From: Candidatus Dormiibacterota bacterium
GTDB lineage: Bacteria; Chloroflexota; Dormibacteria; Aeolococcales; Bog-877
Assembly (NCBI GenBank): GCA_049591595.1
Contig: JBAWFE010000027.1
Span: 149,812 to 213,811, forward strand
Direction: 5' to 3'
DNA length: 64,000 bases
In this document: positions 1 through 33,260 of the stretch, piece after piece
How the letters are laid out: each line of letters starts with the position of its first letter
Position numbering within the stretch: the stretch's first letter is position 1
Notes under the pieces: generated by a model
What the model saw: only the letters and a program-made list of their open reading frames with translations
Told to the model about the DNA's origin: nothing
Databases searched by the model: none
Position numbers and translations under genes: made by a program

Positions 1-1045
1 GAGATGGGGGGGTGCCGCTCTGCAGGATCGTGGTCAACCCGACGAGTACCGCCATGGCTCCCACCCCGGCAACTGCCATGCACGCTATCCCCACAATCAG
101 ATTGGGCGAGTTCGCCAGACCTGCTATGGCCAGTGCGATCACGAGACATCCTCCCGCCACCATGCGACCGGGACGGACGTGAAGGCTGCCCGCAGCGAGA
201 CCGCCGAGGATGCCACCCAATGCCTGGCCGGTCAGCATCAGTCCCAAGTCAGTAGCTGACCCGCCCAGATGGTGGCGCACCAGGGGCACCAGCATGACGT
301 TCAGCAGACCTTGACCAACGAATACGAATGCCACGACCGAAAAAATCACGCGCAACGGTCGACCCCCAGCAACCGTGGCCATACCCGACCACATCTCTCG
401 GATGACGCGGCGAACCGCGGTGCCCTCGAAGTCCGCCAGTAGTCCCGGCTGGTCCTCGTTTTCGGCACTCTTGCCGATCGGCCAGCTGGCGGCAGCAGCG
501 AATCCGAAGGTCGCGGCGTCCACGACCACGACTGCGAGCAGCCCGCCCGCGCCGAATAGAAGTCCGCCAATCGGCGGACCGAGAAGCCGGGCCAGATCGA
601 TGCCGAGAGCCTCAATGGCATTGGCAGAAACCAGAATCTCCGGCTCGACGATTTTGTGCACCAGCACCCCGGCGGCGGGCGCCGTGAAGACCGTGCCCAG
701 AGACTCCAGCAGCGCCACCAGATAGACGATCCAGATCTCACCGCTTCCGTGGACGGCGAGCAGGCTGAGCAGCATGAGGGCCTGGGCCGCATTGCAGAAA
801 ATCAGGACTTGACGGGTATTCCAGCGGTCGATCAGGGTCCCGGCCAGCGGTGCCAGCACCACCTGGGGCACGGTTTGGACCACGAACACCGCTCCCGTCG
901 AGACGACGGAGCCGGTGAGCGTGTAGACATAGAACGGAAGGGCGACGAACAGGGCAAAGTCGCCCAATTGGGATACCACACTGCCGGTCCAGTACCGGCG
1001 AAACTGCACGGTCCGCAAGGGCACCAAGAGTTGGGGGGACCGCAT
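1..1045 (-). CDS. MFS transporter, C-terminally truncated by the window edge
   Basis: The ORF track misses this gene. Reverse-strand translation from ATG at 1045 gives MRSPQLLVPLRTVQFRRYWTGSVVSQLGDFALFVALPFYVYTLTGS..., with many hydrophobic helices and typical MFS N-terminus motifs. The frame continues to position 1. Confidence 0.7.
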   Translation of the reverse strand, partial: MRSPQLLVPLRTVQFRRYWTGSVVSQLGDFALFVALPFYVYTLTGSVVSTGAVFVVQTVPQVVLAPLAGTLIDRWNTRQVLIFCNAAQALMLLSLLAVHGSGEIWIVYLVALLESLGTVFTAPAAGVLVHKIVEPEILVSANAIEALGIDLARLLGPPIGGLLFGAGGLLAVVVVDAATFGFAAAASWPIGKSAENEDQPGLLADFEGTAVRRVIREMWSGMATVAGGRPLRVIFSVVAFVFVGQGLLNVMLVPLVRHHLGGSATDLGLMLTGQALGGILGGLAAGSLHVRPGRMVAGGCLVIALAIAGLANSPNLIVGIACMAVAGVGAMAVLVGLTTILQSGTPPS

Positions 1046-1171
1046 CGGGCTAAGACGCCATCAGCGCGGACGCTCTTCGCCGGATCCGGTGGTGCCCAGC
1101 CACATTCGACAGTGCAGAAGAACTCGGATGTGAACCTGCACAATCGCCAAAAAACGATCGGTCACAGGCCT

Positions 1172-1825
1172 TCAGCCACCTCGCTGGGCGCGCTGACCGC
1201 CTCGGCTCGTCCCACGGCGCTGCTGCGGCTCGCTGAGGGGGTAGCTCAGGAGAAGCACCTCGACTGACCGGGAGCCGGCCGGCCGCAAAGTCCGGTCTGC
1301 TATCCGGTGGTCGAAACGATGCCAAACCTCCTGCTGGTCCTCGACCCACTTGGTGAGCTCAGTTGGAGTTACGAAGAGAACCGATTGTTGAATCGGCAAG
1401 GCCCGCCGCCATTTCACCGGGTAAGCACGGCGAGCGTGGAGCGACGCCTGAAACCGCGAAAGAGAGTGGTCGATGAAACGGTTGAGCAGTTCGTCCGTCG
1501 CCACCTCGAACCCGGGTTCTCCCTCGTCGTCCACGATGGCGAGAGAAACGTGGGACGCTCTCCACGGCCGTTCGCGGCCGCGACCGCCGGGCGCCGGTTC
1601 CACGAACCCGTACTTCGATAGCTGGCGGAGGTGAAACGAACAGCTCGAGGGGCTCTCCCCGACGATTGCTGCCGCGGCGGTGGCGGTCAGCGGTCCCTCC
1701 AGGGTGAGTTGTTGGAGTAGAGCGAGCCGGATCGGGTGGGCGAGCGCCCGGATCGAACGAGGATCGCTGAGTTGTCGGGCTGGCAACTCCTTCGACCGAG
1801 CGGGTCGGGGTTGGGGCTGTGGCAC
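1172..1825 (-). CDS. ArsR-type winged-HTH transcriptional regulator
   Basis: HTH segment IRALAHPIRLALLQQL...SPSSCSFHLRQLSKYGFVE. It lies directly upstream of the MFS gene on the same strand. The exact start is uncertain. Confidence 0.5.
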   Translation of the reverse strand: MPQPQPRPARSKELPARQLSDPRSIRALAHPIRLALLQQLTLEGPLTATAAAAIVGESPSSCSFHLRQLSKYGFVEPAPGGRGRERPWRASHVSLAIVDDEGEPGFEVATDELLNRFIDHSLSRFQASLHARRAYPVKWRRALPIQQSVLFVTPTELTKWVEDQQEVWHRFDHRIADRTLRPAGSRSVEVLLLSYPLSEPQQRRGTSRGGQRAQRGG

Positions 1826-2292
1826 TATTGAAAGATATCATTCGAAAGGTAGCGTGCGAAGGCCGAAGGGACTTCGGATGACCCCGACTGCCGAGATCAG
1901 GGCTACAGGGCCATGGGGTTGAGCATGATCCGCAGTGCTGAGCACTCACGCCGCTGCTCCGACAGCGGGCACTCCCACCCGAGTGCGGCGAACAGGCGAC
2001 CGCATCTGCATGTGGCTTGCGGTTTTGGGAGGATATCGTCCCGCACGTCGTGAACTCCTGGTCCACTCGGGTAGTGATGAACACAATCGAGCGGGCTCAC
2101 GTCTGGTGGTGGTCCCACGTGGATCGTTGCTGACTGCCGGCGCCAACGCGCAGCTCCTGTTCCGAGCGTGAGATTTATCGAACCGGTGCTGGCCCGCTCC
2201 AGACGGTGTAACGCGGCGCCGGCGATAAGTCGGTTGTCCAGTTCGGAATTGCCCTGAGTTGACCAATCGGTAGACGGTCGATAATTCCGGTT

Positions 2293-2991
2293 GTGGGCAG
2301 TCAAGTTGGCGAAGCGCCGGTCGCAGCCGCCGCCAAGCTGTTTGCGGACGGCACCCGCGCGGCCTTCTGCCTGGCTCTGCTCGACGGACGTTTCCGAACG
2401 GCAGGTGAACTGGCTCGCGGGGCCGGGGTCACAGCGTCCACGGCGAGCGAGCACCTTTCGCAGCTGGTAGCCGGAGGAGTCCTCGTCGCCGACCAGCAGG
2501 GCCGTCACCGGTACTTCCGACTCTCGGGGCCTGACGTCGCGACAGTCTTGGAAGCGCTGGCTGTGGTGTCGCCTGTCCGTGCTGAGTACCCGTCGCCGTG
2601 GGGCCGCGCCGTGAGCGCCTTACAGGCCGGGCGTACCTGTTACGACCATCTAGCAGGGCGCCTGGGGGTGGAGCTTACCGATGCCTTGATCGCTCTCCAG
2701 GTCATCACCGCCGAATTCACACTGGGTGACCCGGCCCGCCTGACTCCGTTTGGGATAGAGCTGCCGACCGGATCGTCTCGTCCGGTCGTTCGGCCTTGCT
2801 TGGATTGGACGGAAAGACGCCATCACGCGGCCGGGAGCTTGCCGGCGGCGCTCACTCGTCGATTCTTCGAGCTGAGCTGGCTGCATCGAGCAACCCGAGG
2901 TCGGGCCGTGCGCTTGACGGCAGTTGGCCAGCAAGGACTCAGCGAGCTTTTGGGAGTAGAGTTCCCGGTTCCGAGCGACCGCTTTACCTGA
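2293..2991 (+). CDS. ArsR-family HTH transcriptional regulator
   Basis: AAFCLALLDGRFRTAGELARGAGVTASTASEHLSQLVAGGVL is a winged-helix signature. It is divergent from the ArsR-like gene at 1825 and heads a small P450 operon. Confidence 0.6.
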   Translation: MGSQVGEAPVAAAAKLFADGTRAAFCLALLDGRFRTAGELARGAGVTASTASEHLSQLVAGGVLVADQQGRHRYFRLSGPDVATVLEALAVVSPVRAEYPSPWGRAVSALQAGRTCYDHLAGRLGVELTDALIALQVITAEFTLGDPARLTPFGIELPTGSSRPVVRPCLDWTERRHHAAGSLPAALTRRFFELSWLHRATRGRAVRLTAVGQQGLSELLGVEFPVPSDRFT

Positions 2992-3052
2992 AGCGGTTCA
3001 CTGTTCCGATGATTCGGTCCAGGCCGAAATAAACTCCGCTTACCATCACCCG

Positions 3053-4117
3053 GTGACCGGGATTGGCGAGAACGTCAAGGCGTCCCAAGCTCTTGGCCCC
3101 GCACCGTTGACGGCTGACGTCTTCTCGAAGCCAGCTGGCGCGAGTGAGTGGGTCGCGTCGCGCTACCGTGACGTGCAAGCGGTTCTGGCCGATGAGCGAT
3201 TCGAAGTGGGCACGGTTCCCCAGGTGGGCGCGGTGGGCAGCGTCTCATGGTTGCGCGCCTCGGTATCGCGGTTTGTCAACGGCGCCGAGCATCAGCGCCG
3301 CCGACAACGTGTGGAAGGTGAACTACGCCGGCTGGATCCCCAGCTTTTGCGGTCCGATTGCTATCGACGCGCGTGCGCTGCTATTCAGGAGGCGGGACAT
3401 CCGGGCGAACGCATGGACGTCATGGCGCTCCTGGCCCGGCAGATCCCGATGACGGCCGTAGCGGGGATGCTCGGTGTCGCGGATCCGACACGAGCCGCTC
3501 AGGCGGTGATCGCTTTATCAGCCGGATACTTTCCGGGATCCGATCCTGCGACTCAGCCGGCTGCTGACGTGGCGACCGCCCAGCTTGTGAGCATGCTGGA
3601 GCCCGCCGACCGGGAGCTGATCGTGAGCCGTATCGCGCTGATGGTTCAGGGCTGCGATGCGACCGCCGGTTTGATCGGCAACTCCTTGTACGTCCTGCAG
3701 GAAGCCCAGACGGCTAAATTGGCCGCGATCTGGTCCACCGAATCCCTCTTGTGGGAGACGCTGCGCCGCCATTCACCGCTGCGAGCCAGCCGGCGACTGG
3801 CCCGCGAGTCGGTGGAGTTCCAAGGGCGGCAGGTGGCTGCCGGCGCCGCCGTCGTCTGCGCCGTCGACGTCGCCAACCAGGACCCGCTCGCATTTTCCCA
3901 TCCAACCGGATTCGACCCCGACCGCGTGGGACCGGCGAGCCTGACGTTTGGATATGGGGTTCGACCGTGTCCAGGTCAGGCTCAGGCACTGGGGCTGGCC
4001 GCTGGCGTGGTCGACGCGGTCCGGGAGCACTGCTCTTTCGTACCGGGACAGCCCCTGGAATACGAACATTCGCCTGCCTTGCGGATCCCGGCGCGGCTCG
4101 AGGTGGTGTTGTCGTGA
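3053..4117 (+). CDS. cytochrome P450 (compact, 354 aa)
   Basis: Heme-thiolate loop FGYGVRPCPGQAQALG, ExxR motif (WETLRRHSP) and an I-helix-like GCDATAGLIG. GTG start at 3053. Confidence 0.75.
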   Translation: MTGIGENVKASQALGPAPLTADVFSKPAGASEWVASRYRDVQAVLADERFEVGTVPQVGAVGSVSWLRASVSRFVNGAEHQRRRQRVEGELRRLDPQLLRSDCYRRACAAIQEAGHPGERMDVMALLARQIPMTAVAGMLGVADPTRAAQAVIALSAGYFPGSDPATQPAADVATAQLVSMLEPADRELIVSRIALMVQGCDATAGLIGNSLYVLQEAQTAKLAAIWSTESLLWETLRRHSPLRASRRLARESVEFQGRQVAAGAAVVCAVDVANQDPLAFSHPTGFDPDRVGPASLTFGYGVRPCPGQAQALGLAAGVVDAVREHCSFVPGQPLEYEHSPALRIPARLEVVLS

Positions 4118-4914
4118 GCGAGCGCGGCGATGCCTTCGCGGAACTCCACCGACGGGGTGGGCCACTCTTCTTGCCCAATGCGTGGGACTTCGCTTCCGCC
4201 TGGATGCTAGCCCAGGCTGGCTATCCAGCGGTCGGCACCACCAGCCTGGGCGTGGCTGGCGCCGTCGGCAAGCCCGATGCCATGGGCTCGGTCCGAGAAG
4301 AGACGCTGGTGCTGACCCATCGGCTTGCCCGACTTCCCGTGTTGCTGACCGTGGACCTCGAGTCGGGCTTCAGTGATGACCCCGAGGAGGTGGCAGATTT
4401 GGCGGCCGAGATCAGCGCCGCCGGAGCGGTTGGCATCAATCTCGAGGACGGCACGCTGGACCAGACCATGGGGCCTAGCGATCTGCATTGCGCCAAGATT
4501 GCGGCCGTCAAGTCGAGGGTCCCAGAGCTGTTCGTCAACGCCCGCACTGATGCCTTCTGGCTCACCCACAAGGCCTCTCAGCCTGCACTCGATGACTCGC
4601 TGCGCCGGGCCCGAGACTATCTTTCAGCGGGCGCCAGCGGCATCTTCATCCCGGGACTCCAGGAGTACCAGTCGATCGAAACGGTGAGTGCCGAGATCGA
4701 CGCTCCTTTGAACATTCTGTACCAGCCGGGACGCCACACCCTGAGCCGACTGGCCCTTGCGGGCGTCGCCCGAGTCAGCACCGGATCGCTGCTCTTCCGA
4801 GCGGCCCTGCAGGCGCTGCTGCAGACCTCCCATGCGGCCCGCGATTACGCGGTACTGGAAGATCCTGAACGGCCGACCTACCGACAGATTCAGACCGCCC
4901 TGATTGGCCCCTGA
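4114..4914 (+). CDS. isocitrate lyase/PEP mutase superfamily enzyme (carboxyvinyl-carboxyphosphonate phosphorylmutase / methylisocitrate lyase-like)
   Basis: AWDFASAWMLAQAGYPAVGTTSLGVA ... LLTVDLESGF ... INLEDG ... NARTDAF. GTG start overlaps the P450 stop (GTGA). Confidence 0.7.
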   Translation: MSERGDAFAELHRRGGPLFLPNAWDFASAWMLAQAGYPAVGTTSLGVAGAVGKPDAMGSVREETLVLTHRLARLPVLLTVDLESGFSDDPEEVADLAAEISAAGAVGINLEDGTLDQTMGPSDLHCAKIAAVKSRVPELFVNARTDAFWLTHKASQPALDDSLRRARDYLSAGASGIFIPGLQEYQSIETVSAEIDAPLNILYQPGRHTLSRLALAGVARVSTGSLLFRAALQALLQTSHAARDYAVLEDPERPTYRQIQTALIGP

Positions 4915-4917
4915 CCG

Positions 4918-5526
4918 GTGAGCCGTCGCTTCCTGATAGTTCACGGCTTGGCCAACCATCGTCCGCCAGACCACTGGCAGTGGTGGCTCACAGATCAGCT
5001 TCGTCAACTCGGCGAGCAGGTGCGCTACCCGCAATTCCCCGACCCTGAAGCACCTTCCCTCGAGCCCTGGCTGGAGCTGCTAAGCGCGGAGTTCGCGATG
5101 CTGGGCGCTGGAGAGCGAGTCGCGGTCTGTCACAGTCTCGGTTGCGCTCTCTGGTATCAGGCGGCCGCTAGGGGCGTTCTCGACCTACCGGCGGACCGGG
5201 TCCTGCTGGTGGCGCCTCCCGGCCCTGGGATCCTGGCGCTGCCGGTAACCGCCGAGTTCCACAGTGGACCCTGGAACGCTCAAGCTCTCGCATCCTCGTC
5301 CCGGACCCCCATCCGGCTGGTCGCGTCTGATCTGGACACATACTGCACCGAAGGCCCGGCAAGTGCGGTCTACGGGCATCCTCTCGATCTCGATGCCGAA
5401 ACCATCGCCGGGGCCGGACACCTTAGCGTGCCCGACGGCTACGGACCGTGGCCACAGGCCCTTCGCTGGTGTCTCGACGGCACGGTCCGCTTCAGCGCTC
5501 CCCATCAGGTGCCGGCCGCCTCATGA
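4918..5526 (+). CDS. alpha/beta-fold serine hydrolase (RBBP9/YdeN-like)
   Basis: IVHGLANHRPPDHW and the nucleophile elbow CHSLGC. It starts 3 nt after the upstream gene. Confidence 0.55.
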   Translation: MSRRFLIVHGLANHRPPDHWQWWLTDQLRQLGEQVRYPQFPDPEAPSLEPWLELLSAEFAMLGAGERVAVCHSLGCALWYQAAARGVLDLPADRVLLVAPPGPGILALPVTAEFHSGPWNAQALASSSRTPIRLVASDLDTYCTEGPASAVYGHPLDLDAETIAGAGHLSVPDGYGPWPQALRWCLDGTVRFSAPHQVPAAS

Positions 5527-5643
5527 ACCGGAGCACCTCGGCGCGCATGACCTGAAGCACGAGAAGCACTCAGTCACTGCCCCGCTGTGCTGCGGGGAAA
5601 CCGACGGTCCGATCGCAGCGTTCCCTGGATCGGTATTTCGGGA

Positions 5644-6501
5644 CTACTCCCCGGTGGAGGCCACCCGTTCGCCAAGGGTGTCCAGCTCGACACGGACCAC
5701 GCCCGGCTTCTCAAGCCACACTATGTGGCCGCAGTCAGGTGCCACCGTGGTCTTGGCGTTCGGCATCAGTGCGGCGCTAGCTATCCCGTGAGCCACGGGG
5801 ATGGGGCTCTCAGCGCCGAGGAGAAAGCTGGTGGGGACCTGAGTGTGCGGGAGTTGCTGGACTAGAGTCTGGCGCTGGAAGTGATCCCGGATCGAGTCGA
5901 AGGTCTGGGAGTAGCAGGCGACTGAGATCTCCATCGGTGGCATCGGAGGCGCCTCAGCCGGGTGGGCGAAGTAGCCTGGCCAAACCAACGAGAGGCCTTC
6001 AACCTGGTCCGCATCGGTGCCCTCACCGCGAAGAGCCCGGTCGTCCAACTCCTTTGACCGAGCCGCCGCCTCGGGCGTAACCCGTTCTCCGAGGATTCGG
6101 CCCAGGTCCGCCTCCCCGCCGTCCGGCACCGCACCCAAGGGATCAATCACCAGAGCACCTGACACGCGCTCTGGGTGGGCTGCCAGGAGGTGCATGAGCA
6201 GATGGCCGCCCCAGGAATGGCCGATGATCAGCGGTCTCTCCAACCCCAGCTCATCCAGCACCGCGACCACGTCAGCCACCTGGGTTTCCACATCGAAGGG
6301 ACCCGCGGTGGAAGAGGGCGCCAGCCCGCGCTGCTGAAAACGCACCGCCGTGTAGCCGTCGACCAGTTCCGGCAGCAGACTCTCGGTGTATTCGGAGAGC
6401 CCGGGGCCGCCGTGCAGGATCACCACAGGTGGTCCGTGTCCGGCCTTCCATCCAGCGAGTCGGTGCTCTCCTGAGCCGACCTCGAAATCGGGGATTGGCA
6501 T
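5644..6501 (-). CDS. alpha/beta hydrolase (proline iminopeptidase/epoxide hydrolase-like)
   Basis: VVILHGGPG ... IIGHSWGGHLLMHL (GxSxG elbow). The likely start is ATG at 6501 (MPIPDFEV); the ORF is open up to 6666. Confidence 0.65.
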   Translation of the reverse strand: MPIPDFEVGSGEHRLAGWKAGHGPPVVILHGGPGLSEYTESLLPELVDGYTAVRFQQRGLAPSSTAGPFDVETQVADVVAVLDELGLERPLIIGHSWGGHLLMHLLAAHPERVSGALVIDPLGAVPDGGEADLGRILGERVTPEAAARSKELDDRALRGEGTDADQVEGLSLVWPGYFAHPAEAPPMPPMEISVACYSQTFDSIRDHFQRQTLVQQLPHTQVPTSFLLGAESPIPVAHGIASAALMPNAKTTVAPDCGHIVWLEKPGVVRVELDTLGERVASTGE

Positions 6502-6689
6502 GTCGACCGGAAGTCTACCGGTAAAGAAGAGCCCACGCGCATCGGTCCGAGCCCGCCTGGGCTCCGTGGCTTTCAGATCATGCCCTCGGCGTTCAGCGGA
6601 AGTACCAACAACAGGTGCCCCTCGAGTGCCCGGTACCCTGTCGGATGCGTCGCCTACCGTCGCCACACAACCGTTAGGAGAGTTGCCTC

Positions 6690-7103
6690 ATGGTCTTCAC
6701 TGACTCCGAGCTGGCGTACCTGCGCTCCCAGCGCCTCGGCCGTCTGGCGACGGTCGGACCGGACGGTGGACTTCAGAACAACCCGGTGGGTTTCCGCGTT
6801 GACGCTGCCACCGGGACAATCGAAATCGGTGGCTGGAACCTAGGTGCCAGCCGCAAGTTCCACAACATCGAAACGAATCCTCAGGTCGCCTTCGTCGTCG
6901 ACGATCTCGAGTCACTGGATCCCTGGAAGGTTCGCGGGGTGCAGGTCCGGGGGATCGCCGAGGCGCTCGCCAACCAGCCAGCCGGTGAAGCCACCCGGAG
7001 CAGCGAACTGATCCGTATCCATCCTCGCCGGGTCCAAAGCTGGGGCCTTGGAAGCGACGGCAAAGAGGGGTCGCGTCGGACCATTACCCAGCCTCGAATT
7101 TGA
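6690..7103 (+). CDS. PPOX-class (pyridoxamine 5'-phosphate oxidase fold) probable F420-dependent enzyme
   Basis: SELAYLRSQRLGRLATVGPDGGLQNNPVGF ... VAFVVDD ... IHPRRVQSWGL is typical of the Rv-type PPOX/F420 split-barrel family. Confidence 0.6.
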   Translation: MVFTDSELAYLRSQRLGRLATVGPDGGLQNNPVGFRVDAATGTIEIGGWNLGASRKFHNIETNPQVAFVVDDLESLDPWKVRGVQVRGIAEALANQPAGEATRSSELIRIHPRRVQSWGLGSDGKEGSRRTITQPRI

Positions 7104-26299: not shown

Positions 26300-26665
26300 A
26301 TGATGCTGGAGGCGGACGAACTGGCGGGTGCGGTGCGCTCCGCATGGATTGCCGCCGTTGGCGCCGTGATCGTGGTGGTGGCCGTCGCCTTTCTGATTGC
26401 TGGCATTGAGGGAGCGGGACTCGCCCTTGGGGGAGGCCTGCTGGGCGTTGCCAACCTGCGGTTCGCGGCATTCGCCCTCGGTCGGGCCCCGATCGCTTTC
26501 CTGGGCTCCAGCCTGCCTCGGCTGGCTCTGATCACCGTGGTCTTGGTGGTGTTGGTGATGGCGCTCGGCCCGATCGGGGTCTGGGGGCTGGTAGGGCTTC
26601 TGGCGACCCACCTGGCCCAGGTCGGGGCGATGCTTAGGGTCGGGATCAAGGCGGCCAGCAAGTGA
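26300..26665 (+). CDS. atpI: ATP synthase protein I-like membrane protein
   Basis: ~120 aa, 4 hydrophobic helices, immediately before atpB with a 4-nt overlap. Confidence 0.5.
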   Translation: MMLEADELAGAVRSAWIAAVGAVIVVVAVAFLIAGIEGAGLALGGGLLGVANLRFAAFALGRAPIAFLGSSLPRLALITVVLVVLVMALGPIGVWGLVGLLATHLAQVGAMLRVGIKAASK

Positions 26666-27423
26666 GCCCCATGGTCCTGTCCCAGATCGAGGTGGGAAAC
26701 CACTGGACGGCCCACATTTTCGGCATGTCGCTCTACCTGGACACGTTGGTGAGCAGCCTGGTGGCTTTTGCCATTGTGCTGGGGGCGGGGCTCTATCTAC
26801 GCCACGTGGTGACCGCGGGGGTTCCCGGTCGGTTCCAGGCCCTGATCGAGATGGTCTGGGAAACCGTGGACGACTATGTGACCCGGATGATCGGGCCCTT
26901 CGCTAAGTGGGCGGTACCGCTGTGCACGGTGCTGTTCTTCTACATCCTGGTCAGCAACTGGTTGGAGCTGATCCCGACCGGGGACCGGCTGACCTCGGCC
27001 ACCGCCGACGTCAACGACACCGCCGCCTTGGCAGTAATCGTCATCTTTATGGTGCATTACACCTCGATCCGCCAGCGGGGATTCGGGGGCTACATCAAGA
27101 CCAACTATCTGCATCCGGCCGGGATGCCCAAGGCGTTCTACTTCTTGCTGGCTCCGATCAACGTGATCTCCCAGATCTCCTATCCCATCTCCTTGACGCT
27201 AAGGCTCTTCGGCAACATGTTCGCCGCTGCCTTGATGCTGCAGATCATCGCCCTGCTTCCGATCTACCTGTCCTGGGCCTTCAACGGGGTCTGGAAGCTA
27301 TTTGAGGGCGTCTTCGTCGACGTGATTCAGGCCTTCATCTTCGCCTTGCTGACGGTGATCTACCTCAGCATGGCGACCATGGAGCACCACGATGAGTCGG
27401 CGGCCGAGGCCGCCACAGCCTAG
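26662..27423 (+). CDS. atpB: F-type ATP synthase subunit a
   Basis: Conserved TM4/5 region [23 protein letters not shown] with the essential Arg in LRLFGN. Confidence 0.9.
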
Positions 27424-27460
27424 GGGCCTGGCCCCATACCGAGACCTGGGAGGAATTCAA

Positions 27461-27706
27461 TTGGCGCTCGACACGTCTCACGCAATCGTGTACGCCGGGG
27501 CCATGATCGGCACCGGGGTAGGCGCCGTCGGTGCGGCCATAGGTGATGGTCTAGCCGGGGCGCAGCTGATCGCCGGAATTGCCCGGCAGCCGGAGGCTCA
27601 ATCCCGACTGCTGACCTGGACCTTCCTGACTGTTGGTCTGGCCGAAGCCGTGTACTTCATCAACCTGGCGTTGATGTTCGTCTTCATCAGTCTGGCCGGA
27701 AAGTAG
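27461..27706 (+). CDS. atpE: F-type ATP synthase subunit c
   Basis: [62 protein letters not shown] with the ion-binding Glu in LAEAV. RBS GGGAGG is 7 nt before TTG 27461; the ORF is open from 27392. Confidence 0.85.
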
Positions 27707-27716
27707 GCGATCCCGG

Positions 27717-28226
27717 GTGCCACTAGTCGCCGCCGCCAGCCCGCTATCGCTCAACCTGACCTTTCCCGTCGAGATCGTCGTCTTCCTGGCACTCCTGTAC
27801 CTGTTGGCGCGGTATGTCTTCCCGCCGATCGTCAAGGCTCTCGACGCCCGGAAGCAGCAGATCGCCCTGGCCCTGGCAGAGGCCGAGGCGGCACGCCGCG
27901 AGGTCGAGGAGGCCCGCCGCCAGGAGAAGACCGATCTGGCGGACGCCCGGCGCCAGGCCCAGGAGATCCTCGACAAGGCCCAGAAGCTCGGTGAGGAGCT
28001 CCGCGAAGAGCTGCGCCAGAAGGGCCGGGAGGAGCAGGAGGCGATGCTCACCAGGGCCCGGGCCGAGCTCGCCCAGGAGAGAGAGCAGGCCGTCAGCCAA
28101 CTGCGGCGTCAGGTAGCCGACCTGGTGCTTTCGGCCACCCAGAAGATCCTTGAAGAGGAGCTCGACCCGAAGCGTCAGCGCCGCCTCATCGACGAGGCCC
28201 TGGCGGAGGTCGAGCTGAGTGCCTGA
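27717..28226 (+). CDS. atpF: F-type ATP synthase subunit b
   Basis: Single N-terminal TM followed by a long charged coiled coil (EAEAARREVEEARRQE...). Confidence 0.85.
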   Translation: MPLVAAASPLSLNLTFPVEIVVFLALLYLLARYVFPPIVKALDARKQQIALALAEAEAARREVEEARRQEKTDLADARRQAQEILDKAQKLGEELREELRQKGREEQEAMLTRARAELAQEREQAVSQLRRQVADLVLSATQKILEEELDPKRQRRLIDEALAEVELSA

Positions 28227-28785
28227 CGCCCCCCGGGTCCCCAGTACCGCCCGCCATTACGCGGAGGCGGTCTTCCAGCTAGCCCAGGACGAGGGAGCGT
28301 TCGCGCCATGGCTAGCACGGTTGGGGCGGCTGCGCCAGCTGCTGGAGTCGAGCGACCTGGGCAAGACGCTCGCCGACCCCTCCCTCAGGATCGCCCAGAA
28401 GCTGGAGCTCTGCCGAGCGATCCTGACCGAGGACCGGGAGATCGACAAGCTGGCTGGCAACCTGCTCTTGGTGCTGGTGAGTAGCCAGCGCCAGCGACTA
28501 CTACCGGCGATCGAAGCCGGCTACCAGCAGCTGGTGGACAAGCGCGAGGGCCGGGTCCTGGCCCAGCTGACGACCGCAGTCCCGGTGAGTCCCGCCGAGC
28601 AGACGGAGCTGGCGCAGAAGCTCTCGGAGCGGCTCCGACTCGATGTCAGATTCGAGGCCAAGGTTGACCCCGCCCTCTTGGGCGGGGCAGTGGTGCGGGT
28701 GGGAGATCGGGTTTTCGACGCGAGCCTGACCACCCGGCTCCAGCAGTTACGCCAGGACCTGCTTTCTCAAGTGCCAAATAGATGA
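28219..28785 (+). CDS. atpH: F-type ATP synthase subunit delta (OSCP)
   Basis: OSCP-like 188 aa protein between atpF and atpA. Confidence 0.85.
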
Positions 28786-28792
28786 GGAAAAC

Positions 28793-30328
<1,536 letters not shown>

Positions 30329-30336
30329 ACAGCCAC

Positions 30337-32836
<2,500 letters not shown>

Positions 32837-32837
32837 C

Positions 32838-33260
32838 TTGGCCGTCCCCACCAGGCTGCTGGCGGCCGTAAGGCCGCTCTTCGAGGGTGACTGCGACTTC
32901 ATCGTGGCCAGAGGCTCCGACGGCGAACTCGGGGTGCTGCCTGGCCATGCGCCGCTTCTCACCTGGCTCAAGCCCGGCGAGCTGATGCTGCGCCAAGGCC
33001 GTGACGAGCACTTTTTCTTCCTCGAAGGAGCCTACCTGGAGGTGCTCCGCGACCGGGTCTCGATCCTCGCCGATAGAGCTGTTCCCGTCAGCGAGATCGA
33101 CGCCGCCGCGGCGGAGGAGGCGAGGCGAGCCGCCCAGGAAGCCCTGGCCAGGACGACTAGTCCAGGGTCGGAGGAGTTGGCGGAGCTGCAAGGGGAGTTG
33201 GAGGTGGCGGAGTACCGGCTGCAGGCCGCCGAGCGCGACCGCCGGCGGCGCCGGGACTAG
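32838..33260 (+). CDS. atpC: F-type ATP synthase subunit epsilon
   Basis: GVLPGHAPLLTWLKPGELMLRQG is the beta-sandwich signature. C-terminal helical hairpin. TTG start 2 nt after the atpD stop. Confidence 0.85.
   Translation: MAVPTRLLAAVRPLFEGDCDFIVARGSDGELGVLPGHAPLLTWLKPGELMLRQGRDEHFFFLEGAYLEVLRDRVSILADRAVPVSEIDAAAAEEARRAAQEALARTTSPGSEELAELQGELEVAEYRLQAAERDRRRRRD

What the first reader, a model, noticed from the sequence alone, without database searches (positions are those of the whole stretch)
2293..5526. ArsR-headed mini-operon: compact P450, PEP-mutase/isocitrate-lyase-superfamily enzyme and a serine hydrolase, with overlapping junctions
The four genes run co-directionally. The P450 and mutase-family genes overlap (GTGA), and the hydrolase starts 3 nt later. 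A P450 (only 354 aa) coupled to a PEP-mutase-family enzyme is unusual. It could be a small-molecule tailoring or degradation cassette (phosphonate or 2-oxo-acid chemistry) under metalloregulator-type control. The intergenic region in front (1826-2292) is long (467 bp), relatively AT-rich and shared with a second, divergent ArsR-MFS unit.
Basis: inference. Interest (0 to 1): 0.5.

Follow-up and report, generated by a model that had tools for sequence, protein, structure and literature searches.

The report
Coupled compact P450 and PEP-mutase-like pair
A small heme enzyme (P450) and a PEP-mutase-family enzyme sit overlapping behind their own regulator; the pairing recurs in many soil bacteria, is sometimes fused into one protein, and has no known job.

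Summary
The window comes from a Candidatus Dormiibacterota MAG.

- **Conserved core.** It has three genes, not four: a long ArsR-type regulator (232 aa), a compact cytochrome P450 (354 aa, heme-cysteine pocket intact) and a DFA0005-type member of the isocitrate-lyase/PEP-mutase superfamily (266 aa).
- **Linkage.** Of 80 genomes carrying this P450 family, 60 have the mutase-family gene directly downstream. In 52 of the 59 measurable junctions the overlap is the same 4 nt. 53 have the regulator upstream on the same strand.
- **Fusions.** In Streptomyces and Microtetraspora the two enzymes are one polypeptide.
- **Mutase-family protein.** It lacks both the lyase loop (KRCGH) and the PEP-mutase motif (EDKx5NS), so it is neither a methylisocitrate lyase nor a phosphonate-forming mutase. 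It keeps the Mg2+/oxyanion residues.
- **Hydrolase.** The serine hydrolase is a Dormiibacterota-only addition.
- **Regulator.** It lacks the classical ArsR metal sites but has an invariant Cys/His-bearing C-terminal domain.

Function is unknown. My best reading is a physically associated heme plus 2-oxo-acid enzyme pair. The pairing is not described in the literature I could search. Interest is moderate to fairly high.

The parts
1826..2292 (.). 467-bp intergenic region shared with the divergent ArsR1-MFS unit; presumed promoter region of the regulator gene
   Evidence: GC is 60.2% against about 66% in the flanking genes. No Rfam hit and no sigma-70 consensus. Only weakly alignable with the equivalent region of L001.
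2293..2991 (+). Long ArsR-type winged-helix regulator (232 aa): an N-terminal wHTH plus a C-terminal domain of about 130 aa carrying invariant RTCYDHLAG and CxDWTERxxH motifs
2992..3052 (+). 61-nt spacer between the regulator and the P450; candidate operator, internal promoter or translation-initiation region
   Evidence: The 86-nt alignment across the spacer has 65 identical columns (about 76%) between the window and L001, although the flanking proteins are only 68-83% identical. No function was tested.
3053..4117 (+). Compact cytochrome P450 (354 aa) of an uncharacterised family: heme-thiolate pocket intact, I-helix Thr replaced by Ala, shortened F/G region, N-terminal 22 residues disordered
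   Evidence: PF00067 scores 41 bits. Motifs: FGYGVRPCPG with invariant C306, ExxR (E235/R238), and invariant heme-propionate residues H80/R83/R84/R247/R248/R304. AF2 pLDDT 86, and Foldseek TM 0.75-0.80 to P450BioI, CalO2 and PikC. About 25 residues are missing between the F and G helices relative to PikC and MycG.
4114..4914 (+). ICL/PEP-mutase-superfamily TIM-barrel enzyme (266 aa) of the DFA0005-type orphan clade; its start overlaps the P450 stop (GTGA)
   Evidence: PF13714 scores 235 bits. A family profile matches the orphans 2ZE3, 4MG4, 4LSB and 2QIW at E 1e-57 to 1e-35, against 1e-24 or weaker for named or characterised members. Invariant GTTSLG, D81xE83, E111-D112 and N142-x-R144-x-D146; no KRCGH and no EDKx5NS.
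4918..5526 (+). YdeN-type serine hydrolase (202 aa), 3 nt after the mutase-family gene; a lineage-specific accessory
   Evidence: PF06821 scores 92.6 bits. Matches B. subtilis YdeN (1UXO) at E 3.5e-8. Among the 80 related loci a homologue appears only in L001.

Best explanation
The core is a three-gene module. A dedicated ArsR-type repressor carries a Cys/His-bearing sensory domain. It is followed by a compact heme-thiolate P450 and a DFA0005-type ICL/PEP-mutase-fold enzyme, which are made together through translational coupling and work as a physically associated pair on one small carboxylate metabolite. Shown: the three genes are co-inherited across Dormiibacterota and several orders of Actinomycetota; the P450 stop and the mutase-family start overlap by 4 nt almost everywhere; and the two proteins occur as a single fused polypeptide in some genomes. 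Inferred: the TIM-barrel partner binds a 2-oxo- or 2-hydroxy-carboxylate through Mg2+ and its conserved oxyanion hole and performs enolate chemistry (decarboxylation, tautomerisation or C-C cleavage), not the Cys-dependent lyase reaction and not P-C bond formation. Inferred: the P450 oxidises the same molecule or its product, with O2 activation assisted by the substrate because the I-helix Thr is Ala, as in P450 EryF. Inferred: the regulator keeps the operon off until its C-terminal domain senses an unknown signal (metal, redox state or the metabolite). In this Dormiibacterota lineage a YdeN-type serine hydrolase has been added downstream, possibly to release the substrate from an ester.
For: Linkage: 60 of 80 genomes with this P450 family have the mutase-family gene directly downstream, 52 of 59 junctions overlap by exactly 4 nt, and the regulator lies upstream on the same strand in 53. 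The lineages include Dormiibacterota, Acidimicrobiales and Streptosporangiaceae MAGs, many Micromonospora species, Sphaerisporangium, Microbispora and Solihabitans. More distant versions keep the pairing even when gene order changes: Streptoalloteichus has a 282-aa P450 overlapping the mutase-family gene, and Allokutzneria has P450, mutase-family gene and HTH_20 regulator all overlapping. Every pairwise combination occurs: regulator plus mutase-family gene in L090, regulator plus P450 in L003 and L020. Rosetta-stone fusions exist: a 598-aa protein in Microtetraspora niveoalba and 566-568-aa proteins in three Streptomyces isolates. In the 598-aa protein the N-terminal half is 38% identical to the window P450 and the C-terminal half is 51% identical to the window mutase-family protein; the N-terminal half of the 566-aa Streptomyces protein is 37% identical to the window P450. 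Heme-binding residues are invariant and the P450 fold is predicted with confidence. The Mg2+/oxyanion residues of the barrel are invariant, while the lyase and mutase signatures are absent.
Against: No substrate, product or phenotype is known for any member, and no paper was found. No ferredoxin or reductase gene is in the first 10 kb of the window or in the called neighbourhoods. That is common for bacterial P450s but leaves the electron source open. The P450 occurs without the mutase-family gene nearby in 20 of 80 loci, and close mutase-family homologues occur alone, so the partnership is frequent but not obligatory. A large subfamily of partners has shrunk to 247-300 aa and lost the C-terminal sheet, and in some members much of the strand region after the K helix as well. 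That is hard to reconcile with a conventional enclosed monooxygenase pocket and favours the sensor or accessory rivals.
Confidence: 0.45

Rival explanations
1. The P450-derived protein is a heme-based sensor or regulatory subunit, not a substrate-oxidising enzyme. It reports O2, NO, CO or redox state to the mutase-family enzyme, in the way the heme-thiolate domain of cystathionine beta-synthase modulates its catalytic domain.
For: Heme-ligand residues stay invariant while the substrate-binding periphery is progressively lost. At least 34 of the 150 best family representatives are 247-300 aa and end right after the L helix. In the fusions it is this minimal form that is joined to the barrel. 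The I-helix Thr needed for normal O2 activation is Ala or Gly throughout the family, and the acid residue is not invariant in the minimal forms. No redox partner is encoded nearby.
Against: The window protein belongs to the long subfamily, which keeps the C-terminal sheet and a complete P450 fold. The P450 is found alone in 16 of 80 loci, with neither partner gene nearby, where a dedicated sensor subunit would have nothing next to it to regulate. Thr-to-Ala is compatible with catalysis in EryF (own knowledge).
Confidence: 0.2
2. The P450-derived protein is a non-catalytic activator or chaperone of its downstream partner. This is the same logic as the P450-derived glycosyltransferase activators (DesVIII, EryCII, TylM3), which are encoded just upstream of the enzyme they stabilise.
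For: The best NCBIfam model for the window P450 is TIGR04515, 'P450-derived glycosyltransferase activator'. It aligns end to end (residues 32-351 to model positions 53-385) at E 2e-23, better than any true P450 model. The gene arrangement is the same: directly upstream of the partner and translationally coupled.
Against: The score is 83 bits against a cut-off of 343. The defining feature of that family is loss of the heme cysteine (own knowledge), and here the cysteine and all heme-propionate residues are invariant. The partner is not a glycosyltransferase.
Confidence: 0.1
3. An alpha-keto-acid-driven P450. The barrel domain binds a 2-oxo acid whose oxidative decarboxylation supplies the two electrons for O2 activation at the heme, replacing ferredoxin and reductase in the way 2-oxoglutarate does for non-heme iron oxygenases.
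For: No redox partners are encoded near the pair. The two domains are fused or translationally coupled. The closest solved relative, DFA0005 (2ZE3), was crystallised with 2-oxoglutarate (own knowledge). Among the functionally named solved relatives matched more distantly is an oxaloacetate decarboxylase, PA4872.
Against: There is no precedent and no direct evidence. The barrel's chemistry in known relatives is redox-neutral. Either partner can occur alone.
Confidence: 0.08
4. A phosphonate biosynthesis or degradation cassette, with the mutase-family protein acting as a PEP mutase, CPEP mutase or phosphonopyruvate hydrolase.
For: The Pfam family name is PEP_mutase. There is weak similarity to CPEP mutase (TIGR02319, 56 bits; 4IQD at E 3e-24 with the family profile).
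Against: The EDKx5NS motif used to define true Ppm (PMC8942020) is absent; the loop reads EDGTLDQTMGPSD. All three equivalog models score far below their cut-offs. No phosphonopyruvate decarboxylase or other phosphonate gene appeared among the neighbours examined, which were Pfam-annotated for only part of the loci.
Confidence: 0.03
5. The genes are unrelated neighbours that merely happen to be adjacent.
For: Each gene family also occurs alone. The flanking genes differ between lineages.
Against: The same 4-nt overlap occurs in 52 of 59 junctions across distant lineages. The triad persists after gene-order rearrangement. Gene fusions occur in two separate genera.
Confidence: 0.02

Closest known systems
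CYP107-type bacterial P450s (MycG, PikC, EryF) and the carrier-protein-dependent P450BioI and CalO2
   Same: Same fold (Foldseek TM 0.75-0.80). Best sequence-profile matches in the PDB (E about 1e-30). Cys-pocket FxxGxRxCxG, ExxR and heme-propionate residues are all present. The I-helix has Ala in place of the conserved Thr, as in EryF (own knowledge).
   Different: About 20-24% identity in the structural alignments. It is 45-60 residues shorter: about 25 residues are missing in the F/G region, there is no H helix, and the N-terminus is trimmed. An invariant Cys sits next to the I-helix acid (QGCDATAG). The obligatory-looking partner is an ICL/PEP-mutase-fold protein, which none of those enzymes has.
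P450-derived glycosyltransferase activators (TIGR04515: DesVIII, EryCII, TylM3)
   Same: A P450-derived protein encoded immediately upstream of, and coupled to, the enzyme it works with. This is the best-scoring NCBIfam model for the window protein.
   Different: The score is far below the cut-off (83 against 343). Those proteins have lost the heme cysteine (own knowledge), whereas here it is invariant. The partner here is a TIM-barrel ICL/PEPM enzyme, not a GT-B glycosyltransferase.
DFA0005 (2ZE3) and the structural-genomics orphans 4MG4, 4LSB and 2QIW of the ICL/PEP-mutase superfamily
   Same: Closest solved relatives (E 1e-57 to 1e-35 with the family profile). Same length class (255-294 aa) and the same short loop lacking KRCGH.
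   Different: None has an assigned function, and whether any is paired with a P450 was not examined here. They give a fold but no reaction.
Methylisocitrate lyase PrpB, PEP mutase, and PA4872 oxaloacetate decarboxylase
   Same: Same superfamily and barrel. The Mg2+-binding acids and the oxyanion hole are conserved.
   Different: No catalytic KRCGH loop and no EDKx5NS motif. Equivalog HMM scores are 26-56 bits against cut-offs of 320-420. PA4872 matches only at E 2e-14 with the family profile.
ArsR/SmtB repressors (CzrA, SmtB, CadC) and SufR-like COG2345 regulators
   Different: The classical alpha3 (CxC) and alpha5 (His/Asp/Glu) metal sites are absent. It scores below the NCBIfam metalloregulator cut-off. 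The C-terminal domain has no PDB match. Its Cys-x2-His ... Cys-x8-His pattern differs from the three-Cys cluster site described for SufR.

Membership tests
Cytochrome P450 (PF00067) | Profile match above the curated cut-off | tested here: met
   41.3 bits against a gathering score of 22.8.
Cytochrome P450 (PF00067) | Heme-thiolate pocket FxxGxRxCxG with the ligand Cys | tested here: met
   FGYGVRPCPG is present. F299, G300, G302, R304, C306 and P307 are invariant and G308 nearly invariant in 27 family members.
Cytochrome P450 (PF00067) | K-helix ExxR motif | tested here: met
   E235-T-L-R238. R238 is invariant and E235 nearly invariant.
Cytochrome P450 (PF00067) | I-helix acid-alcohol pair (A/G-G-x-D/E-T-T/S) for O2 activation | tested here: not met
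   The sequence is QGCDAT. The acid D202 is present, but the alcohol position is Ala or Gly throughout the family.
Cytochrome P450 (PF00067) | P450 fold | tested here: met
   AF2 pLDDT 86 and pTM 0.87. Foldseek TM 0.75-0.80 to P450BioI, CalO2 and PikC.
Cytochrome P450 (PF00067) | Binds heme and gives a 450-nm Fe(II)-CO band | not testable with these tools
   Needs purified protein.
P450-derived glycosyltransferase activator (TIGR04515) | Profile score above the cut-off | tested here: not met
   83.3 bits against 343.
P450-derived glycosyltransferase activator (TIGR04515) | Loss of the heme-ligand Cys; glycosyltransferase partner downstream | tested here: not met
   The Cys is invariant. The downstream partner is PF13714, not a glycosyltransferase.
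ICL/PEP-mutase superfamily (PF13714) | Profile match, with conserved Mg2+ ligands and oxyanion hole | tested here: met
   235 bits against 31.5. GTTSLG, D81, E83, E111, D112 and R144 are invariant.
PEP mutase (Ppm, TIGR02320) | EDKx5NS motif (PMC8942020) and equivalog score | tested here: not met
   The loop is EDGTLDQTMGPSD. 26.4 bits against 319.6. The motif definition was read.
Methylisocitrate lyase / isocitrate lyase | Catalytic K(K/R)CGH gating loop and equivalog score | tested here: not met
   No KRCGH or KKCGH anywhere in the 29-sequence alignment. TIGR02317 scores 56.3 bits against 354.4.
DFA0005-type orphan clade of the superfamily | Closest profile similarity; short gating loop; length about 255-295 aa | tested here: met
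   2ZE3 at E 2.8e-57, 4MG4 at 8e-55, 4LSB at 3e-45 and 2QIW at 3e-35, against 1e-24 or weaker for named or characterised members.
ArsR/SmtB metalloregulators (NF033788) | Subfamily profile above the cut-off | tested here: not met
   45.6 bits against 55. Pfam HTH_20 is met at 37.6 bits against 27.
ArsR/SmtB metalloregulators (NF033788) | Winged-helix fold of the family | tested here: met
ArsR/SmtB metalloregulators (NF033788) | Canonical alpha3 CxC or alpha5 Asp/His/His/Glu metal site | tested here: not met
   By inspection of A2, there is no Cys in the alpha3 region and no His in alpha5. The only invariant Cys of the wHTH is C26.
SufR-like COG2345 regulators | GRP AT-hook in the wing and three cluster-binding Cys in the C-terminal domain | tested here: inconclusive
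   The wing reads QGRHRY (G70 and R71 invariant). The C-terminal domain has two invariant Cys and two invariant His. No COG or CDD model was available to score.
YdeN-type serine hydrolase (PF06821) | Profile match; Ser-Asp-His triad | tested here: met
   92.6 bits against 22. Matches 1UXO (YdeN) at E 3.5e-8. HSLG, SDLD and GAGH segments are present in the translation; the triad assignment is by inspection only.

The most novel reading that the evidence does not exclude
The P450-like protein and the ICL/PEP-mutase-fold protein form a new kind of composite heme/TIM-barrel enzyme. Either the barrel supplies the substrate-binding site, or a 2-oxo-acid electron source, to a P450 heme domain that in many lineages has been stripped down to 247-300 residues. 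Or that minimal heme-thiolate domain acts as a built-in gas or redox sensor for the barrel enzyme. Either way, these would be the smallest P450-derived heme domains I know of with an implied function, and a P450 partnership type not described before.
Probability: 0.2. Interest if true: 0.85.

Novelty: new variant of a known kind. Interest (0 to 1): 0.58.

Why it matters
P450s are among the best-studied enzymes, yet this family appears to have been overlooked. It has 463 representative clusters at E ≤ 1e-30 and is present in many Micromonospora species and several other actinomycete genera, plus uncultured Dormiibacterota and Actinomycetota MAGs. Two reasons are likely: public annotation labels the fusions only 'isocitrate lyase/PEP mutase family protein', and at least one P450 census set short P450 hits aside as fragments (PMC7369989).

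A heme-thiolate domain that is translationally coupled or fused to a TIM-barrel 2-oxo-acid enzyme gives a concrete, cloneable system. It can be used to ask how small a functional P450 can be, and whether P450 heme domains have been recruited for sensing or for partner-assisted catalysis. It also gives a first functional handle on the DFA0005-type orphan clade, which has four solved structures and no known reaction.

Tried and rejected
- **Wider gene cluster.** I clustered all high-GC3 ORFs of the 80 loci. The flanks differ by lineage, for example tsaB-rimI-tsaD / groES-groEL in Streptosporangiaceae MAGs, and GH43, asparagine synthase and MerR genes in Micromonospora. Nothing beyond the triad recurs.
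- **Recurrent accessory genes.** The serine hydrolase appears only in L001. VOC/glyoxalase genes sit next to the pair in L088 and L091 but nowhere in the 80 genome loci. Genes just downstream of P450-only or P450-plus-mutase loci (adenosine kinase, PPOX, aminotransferase, cation efflux) are unrelated to one another.
- **Redox partners.** None was found in the first 10 kb of the window or in the called neighbourhoods.
- **Regulatory RNA or promoter.** Nothing was found upstream. Inverted repeats in the intergenic region are short and unconvincing. Alignment of the long intergenic region with L001 shows little conservation.
- **Literature.** Searches for the P450/PEP-mutase combination, for DFA0005 and for small P450s found nothing relevant.
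- **One apparent mini-P450 rejected.** The 244-254-aa ORF in L087 is probably a 5'-truncated copy of a full-length relative, not a true minimal form. I did not count it as evidence.

Full report
**Observation**

ORF listing confirms four co-directional ORFs at 2293-2991, 3053-4117, 4114-4914 and 4918-5526. Pfam assigns them to HTH_20 (ArsR type), p450, PEP_mutase (PF13714) and Ser_hydrolase (PF06821), all above the curated cut-offs.

- The P450 TGA at 4115-4117 overlaps the GTG at 4114.
- The hydrolase GTG at 4918 follows the mutase-family TGA after 3 nt.

All four exact protein sequences exist in NCBI as consecutive accessions, MGA9920484 to MGA9920487, on a 221,687-bp contig of a 'Candidatus Dormiibacterota bacterium' MAG. 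This both identifies the source and supports the gene calls.

The upstream 467-bp intergenic region has GC 60.2% against about 66% in the genes. It has no Rfam hit and no sigma-70-type promoter. The divergent ArsR-like gene (1172-1825, minus strand) is followed by an MFS_3 transporter that runs off the left end of the window. The two ArsR-like proteins are not close paralogues.

**The P450**

It is 354 aa and cannot be longer, because a stop codon precedes the start. The heme pocket is intact in 27 family members:
- FGYGVRPCPG, with C306 invariant.
- ExxR (E235, R238).
- Heme-propionate residues H80, R83, R84, R247, R248 and R304.

The I-helix reads QGCDATAG. Aligned with PikC's AGHETT, the acid is kept but the conserved Thr is Ala or Gly throughout the family.

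AlphaFold2 gives a confident model (pLDDT 86, pTM 0.87), with only residues 1-22 disordered. Foldseek places it among bacterial P450s: P450BioI, CalO2 and PikC at TM 0.75-0.80 and 20-24% identity. Against PikC and MycG, about 25 residues are missing between the F and G helices, and both termini are trimmed.

The best NCBIfam model is the P450-derived glycosyltransferase activator TIGR04515. It aligns end to end, but at 83 bits against a cut-off of 343.

**The mutase-family protein**

It hits PF13714 at 235 bits but fails every equivalog model:

| Model | Score (bits) | Cut-off (bits) |
|---|---|---|
| prpB (methylisocitrate lyase) | 56 | 354 |
| CPEP mutase | 56 | 420 |
| PEP mutase | 26 | 320 |

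In a 29-sequence alignment the Mg2+/oxyanion scaffold is invariant: GTTSLG, D81-x-E83, E111-D112 and N142-x-R144-x-D146. The gating loop reads EDGTLDQTMGPSD. It has neither the K(K/R)CGH lyase loop nor the EDKx5NS motif used to define true PEP mutases (PMC8942020).

A family profile matches four functionally orphan structures best: 2ZE3 (DFA0005), 4MG4, 4LSB and 2QIW, at E 1e-57 to 1e-35. All named or characterised members score 1e-24 or weaker.

**Conserved linkage**

A genome scan with the P450 family alignment returned 80 loci. tblastn with the window proteins, followed by start/stop analysis, gave these counts:

| Feature | Count |
|---|---|
| Mutase-family gene immediately downstream of the P450 | 60 of 80 loci |
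| Junctions with exactly a 4-nt overlap | 52 of 59 measurable |
| Long ArsR-like gene present | 55 loci (53 upstream on the same strand) |
| Full triad | 51 loci |

The lineages are Dormiibacterota, Acidimicrobiales and Streptosporangiaceae MAGs, dozens of Micromonospora species, Sphaerisporangium, Microbispora and Solihabitans.

Starting instead from mutase-family homologues gave a consistent picture:
- Streptoalloteichus has a 282-aa P450 relative (28% identity, E 6e-33, Cys kept) overlapping the mutase-family gene.
- Allokutzneria has a 249-aa P450, the mutase-family gene and an HTH_20 regulator, all overlapping but in a different order.
- A metagenome contig (L088) has a divergent regulator, a 268-aa P450 and the mutase-family gene.
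- L090 has the regulator followed by the mutase-family gene, with no P450.
- L003 and L020 have the regulator and the P450, with no mutase-family gene.
- The mutase-family gene stands alone in a Streptomyces, a Planosporangium and a Streptosporangiales MAG.
- The P450 has neither partner gene nearby in 16 loci, for example between tsaD and groES in Streptosporangiaceae MAGs.

The serine hydrolase was found only in the other Dormiibacterota locus, L001. No further gene recurs.

**Fusions and minimal forms**

A profile search of 1.84 billion representatives found 463 clusters at E ≤ 1e-30.

Two of the best 150 are 566 and 598 aa. Pfam finds a full PEP_mutase domain in their C-terminal halves. 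In the 598-aa protein the N-terminal half is 38% identical to the window P450 and stops right after the L helix, and the C-terminal half is 51% identical to the window mutase-family protein; the N-terminal half of the 566-aa protein is 37% identical to the window P450 and stops at the same point.

These fusions are RefSeq proteins of Microtetraspora niveoalba and of three independent Streptomyces isolates, one from a 7.8-Mb contig, so they are not assembly errors.

At least 34 of the 150 best representatives are 247-300 aa and end at the same profile position just after the L helix. Those I retrieved keep the Cys pocket. Alignment shows that these forms lack the C-terminal sheet, and some also lack much of the strand region after the K helix. 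One apparent mini form (L087) looks like a 5'-truncated gene, and I did not count it.

**The regulator**

The C-terminal domain of about 130 residues is modelled confidently but has no PDB match. Across 32 homologues it carries invariant RTCYDHLAG and CxDWTERxxH motifs, both on predicted beta-hairpins. I read this as a possible Cys2His2 metal or redox site; that is an inference.

This regulator family is very large, with more than 7,000 hits among the candidates scored. Its overall architecture recalls SufR-like regulators, but I could not test membership.

The 61-nt spacer between the regulator and the P450 is about 76% identical between the window and L001. That suggests a functional element, which I did not test.

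**Interpretation**

Three observations together make a physical and functional partnership the best-supported reading: co-inheritance across phyla, a nearly universal 4-nt overlap, persistence of the triad after rearrangement, and gene fusions in two separate genera.

What the pair does is not known, and I found no paper on it. My preferred mechanism has two parts:
- Mg2+-dependent enolate chemistry on a 2-oxo- or 2-hydroxy-carboxylate by the barrel.
- Heme-dependent oxidation by the P450, under a dedicated repressor.

The erosion of the P450's substrate-binding periphery in many relatives, the Thr-to-Ala change and the absence of nearby redox partners keep three rivals alive: a heme-sensor subunit, a non-catalytic activator in the manner of EryCII, and a keto-acid-driven P450. 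The window copy itself is a complete, if compact, P450.

**Novelty**

The parts belong to known superfamilies. The partnership, its fused forms and the minimal heme domains appear undescribed. Public annotation calls the fusions simply 'isocitrate lyase/PEP mutase family protein'. At least one P450 census set short P450 hits aside as fragments (PMC7369989). I rate it a new variant of a known kind, of moderate to fairly high interest.

Noticed in passing
Related proteins P0413, P0446, P0477, P0499 and others; loci L083:5156-6004, L085:4252-5001, L088:2708-3514: There is a large subfamily of 'mini-P450s' of 247-300 aa. They keep the I helix, the Cys pocket and the L helix, lack the C-terminal sheet, and end right after the L helix. 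Some also lack much of the strand region after the K helix, and one lacks the K-helix Glu. They are usually encoded just upstream of a PEP-mutase-family gene.
   Followed up: partly
P0435 (Microtetraspora niveoalba, WP_067184915.1; L092:6001-7797) and P0506, P0520, P0521 (Streptomyces spp.; L091:2494-4194): Single polypeptides fuse a mini-P450 to a complete PEP_mutase domain. Public databases annotate them only as 'isocitrate lyase/PEP mutase family protein'.
   Followed up: yes
window 1-1825 (minus strand): A second ArsR-like gene (1172-1825, 217 aa, also with a long C-terminal extension) is followed by an MFS_3 transporter that runs off the window. A palindrome, CTATTGAAAGATATCATTCGAAAGGTA, lies at 1825-1851 at the ArsR1 start and could be its operator.
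   Followed up: partly
window 2992-3052: The regulator-P450 spacer is about 76% identical to that of L001. It includes TCCAGGCCGAAA and TCCGCTTACCATCA blocks, and there is no obvious Shine-Dalgarno sequence before the GTG start.
   Followed up: partly
window 5580-5597: A GC-rich hairpin (CCCCGC-TGTGCT-GCGGGG) lies between the convergent hydrolase genes (4918-5526 on the plus strand, 5644-6666 on the minus strand). It has no T-tract and may be a bidirectional terminator.
   Followed up: no
window 6690-7103: This gene encodes an F420-dependent PPOX-class oxidoreductase (TIGR04023, 161 bits). An F420-type enzyme in a Dormiibacterota MAG is notable. A PNPOx-family gene also lies near the pair in L020 and L083.
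   Followed up: no
window about 26300-33260: A run of co-directional genes has the sizes of an F1Fo ATP synthase operon. The 511-aa product of 28793-30328 is named ATP synthase subunit alpha in NCBI.
   Followed up: no
L004-L006, L008-L010, L013 (Streptosporangiaceae and other actinomycete MAGs): The compact P450 sits between the tsaE-tsaB-rimI-tsaD genes and groES-groEL, a normally conserved housekeeping stretch. In L006 the mutase-family gene accompanies it.
   Followed up: partly
L087:2740-3504: A P450 ORF of at most 254 aa starts in the middle of the family alignment (position about 124), upstream of an intact mutase-family gene. It is probably a 5'-truncated or frameshifted copy in a long-read MAG.
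   Followed up: partly
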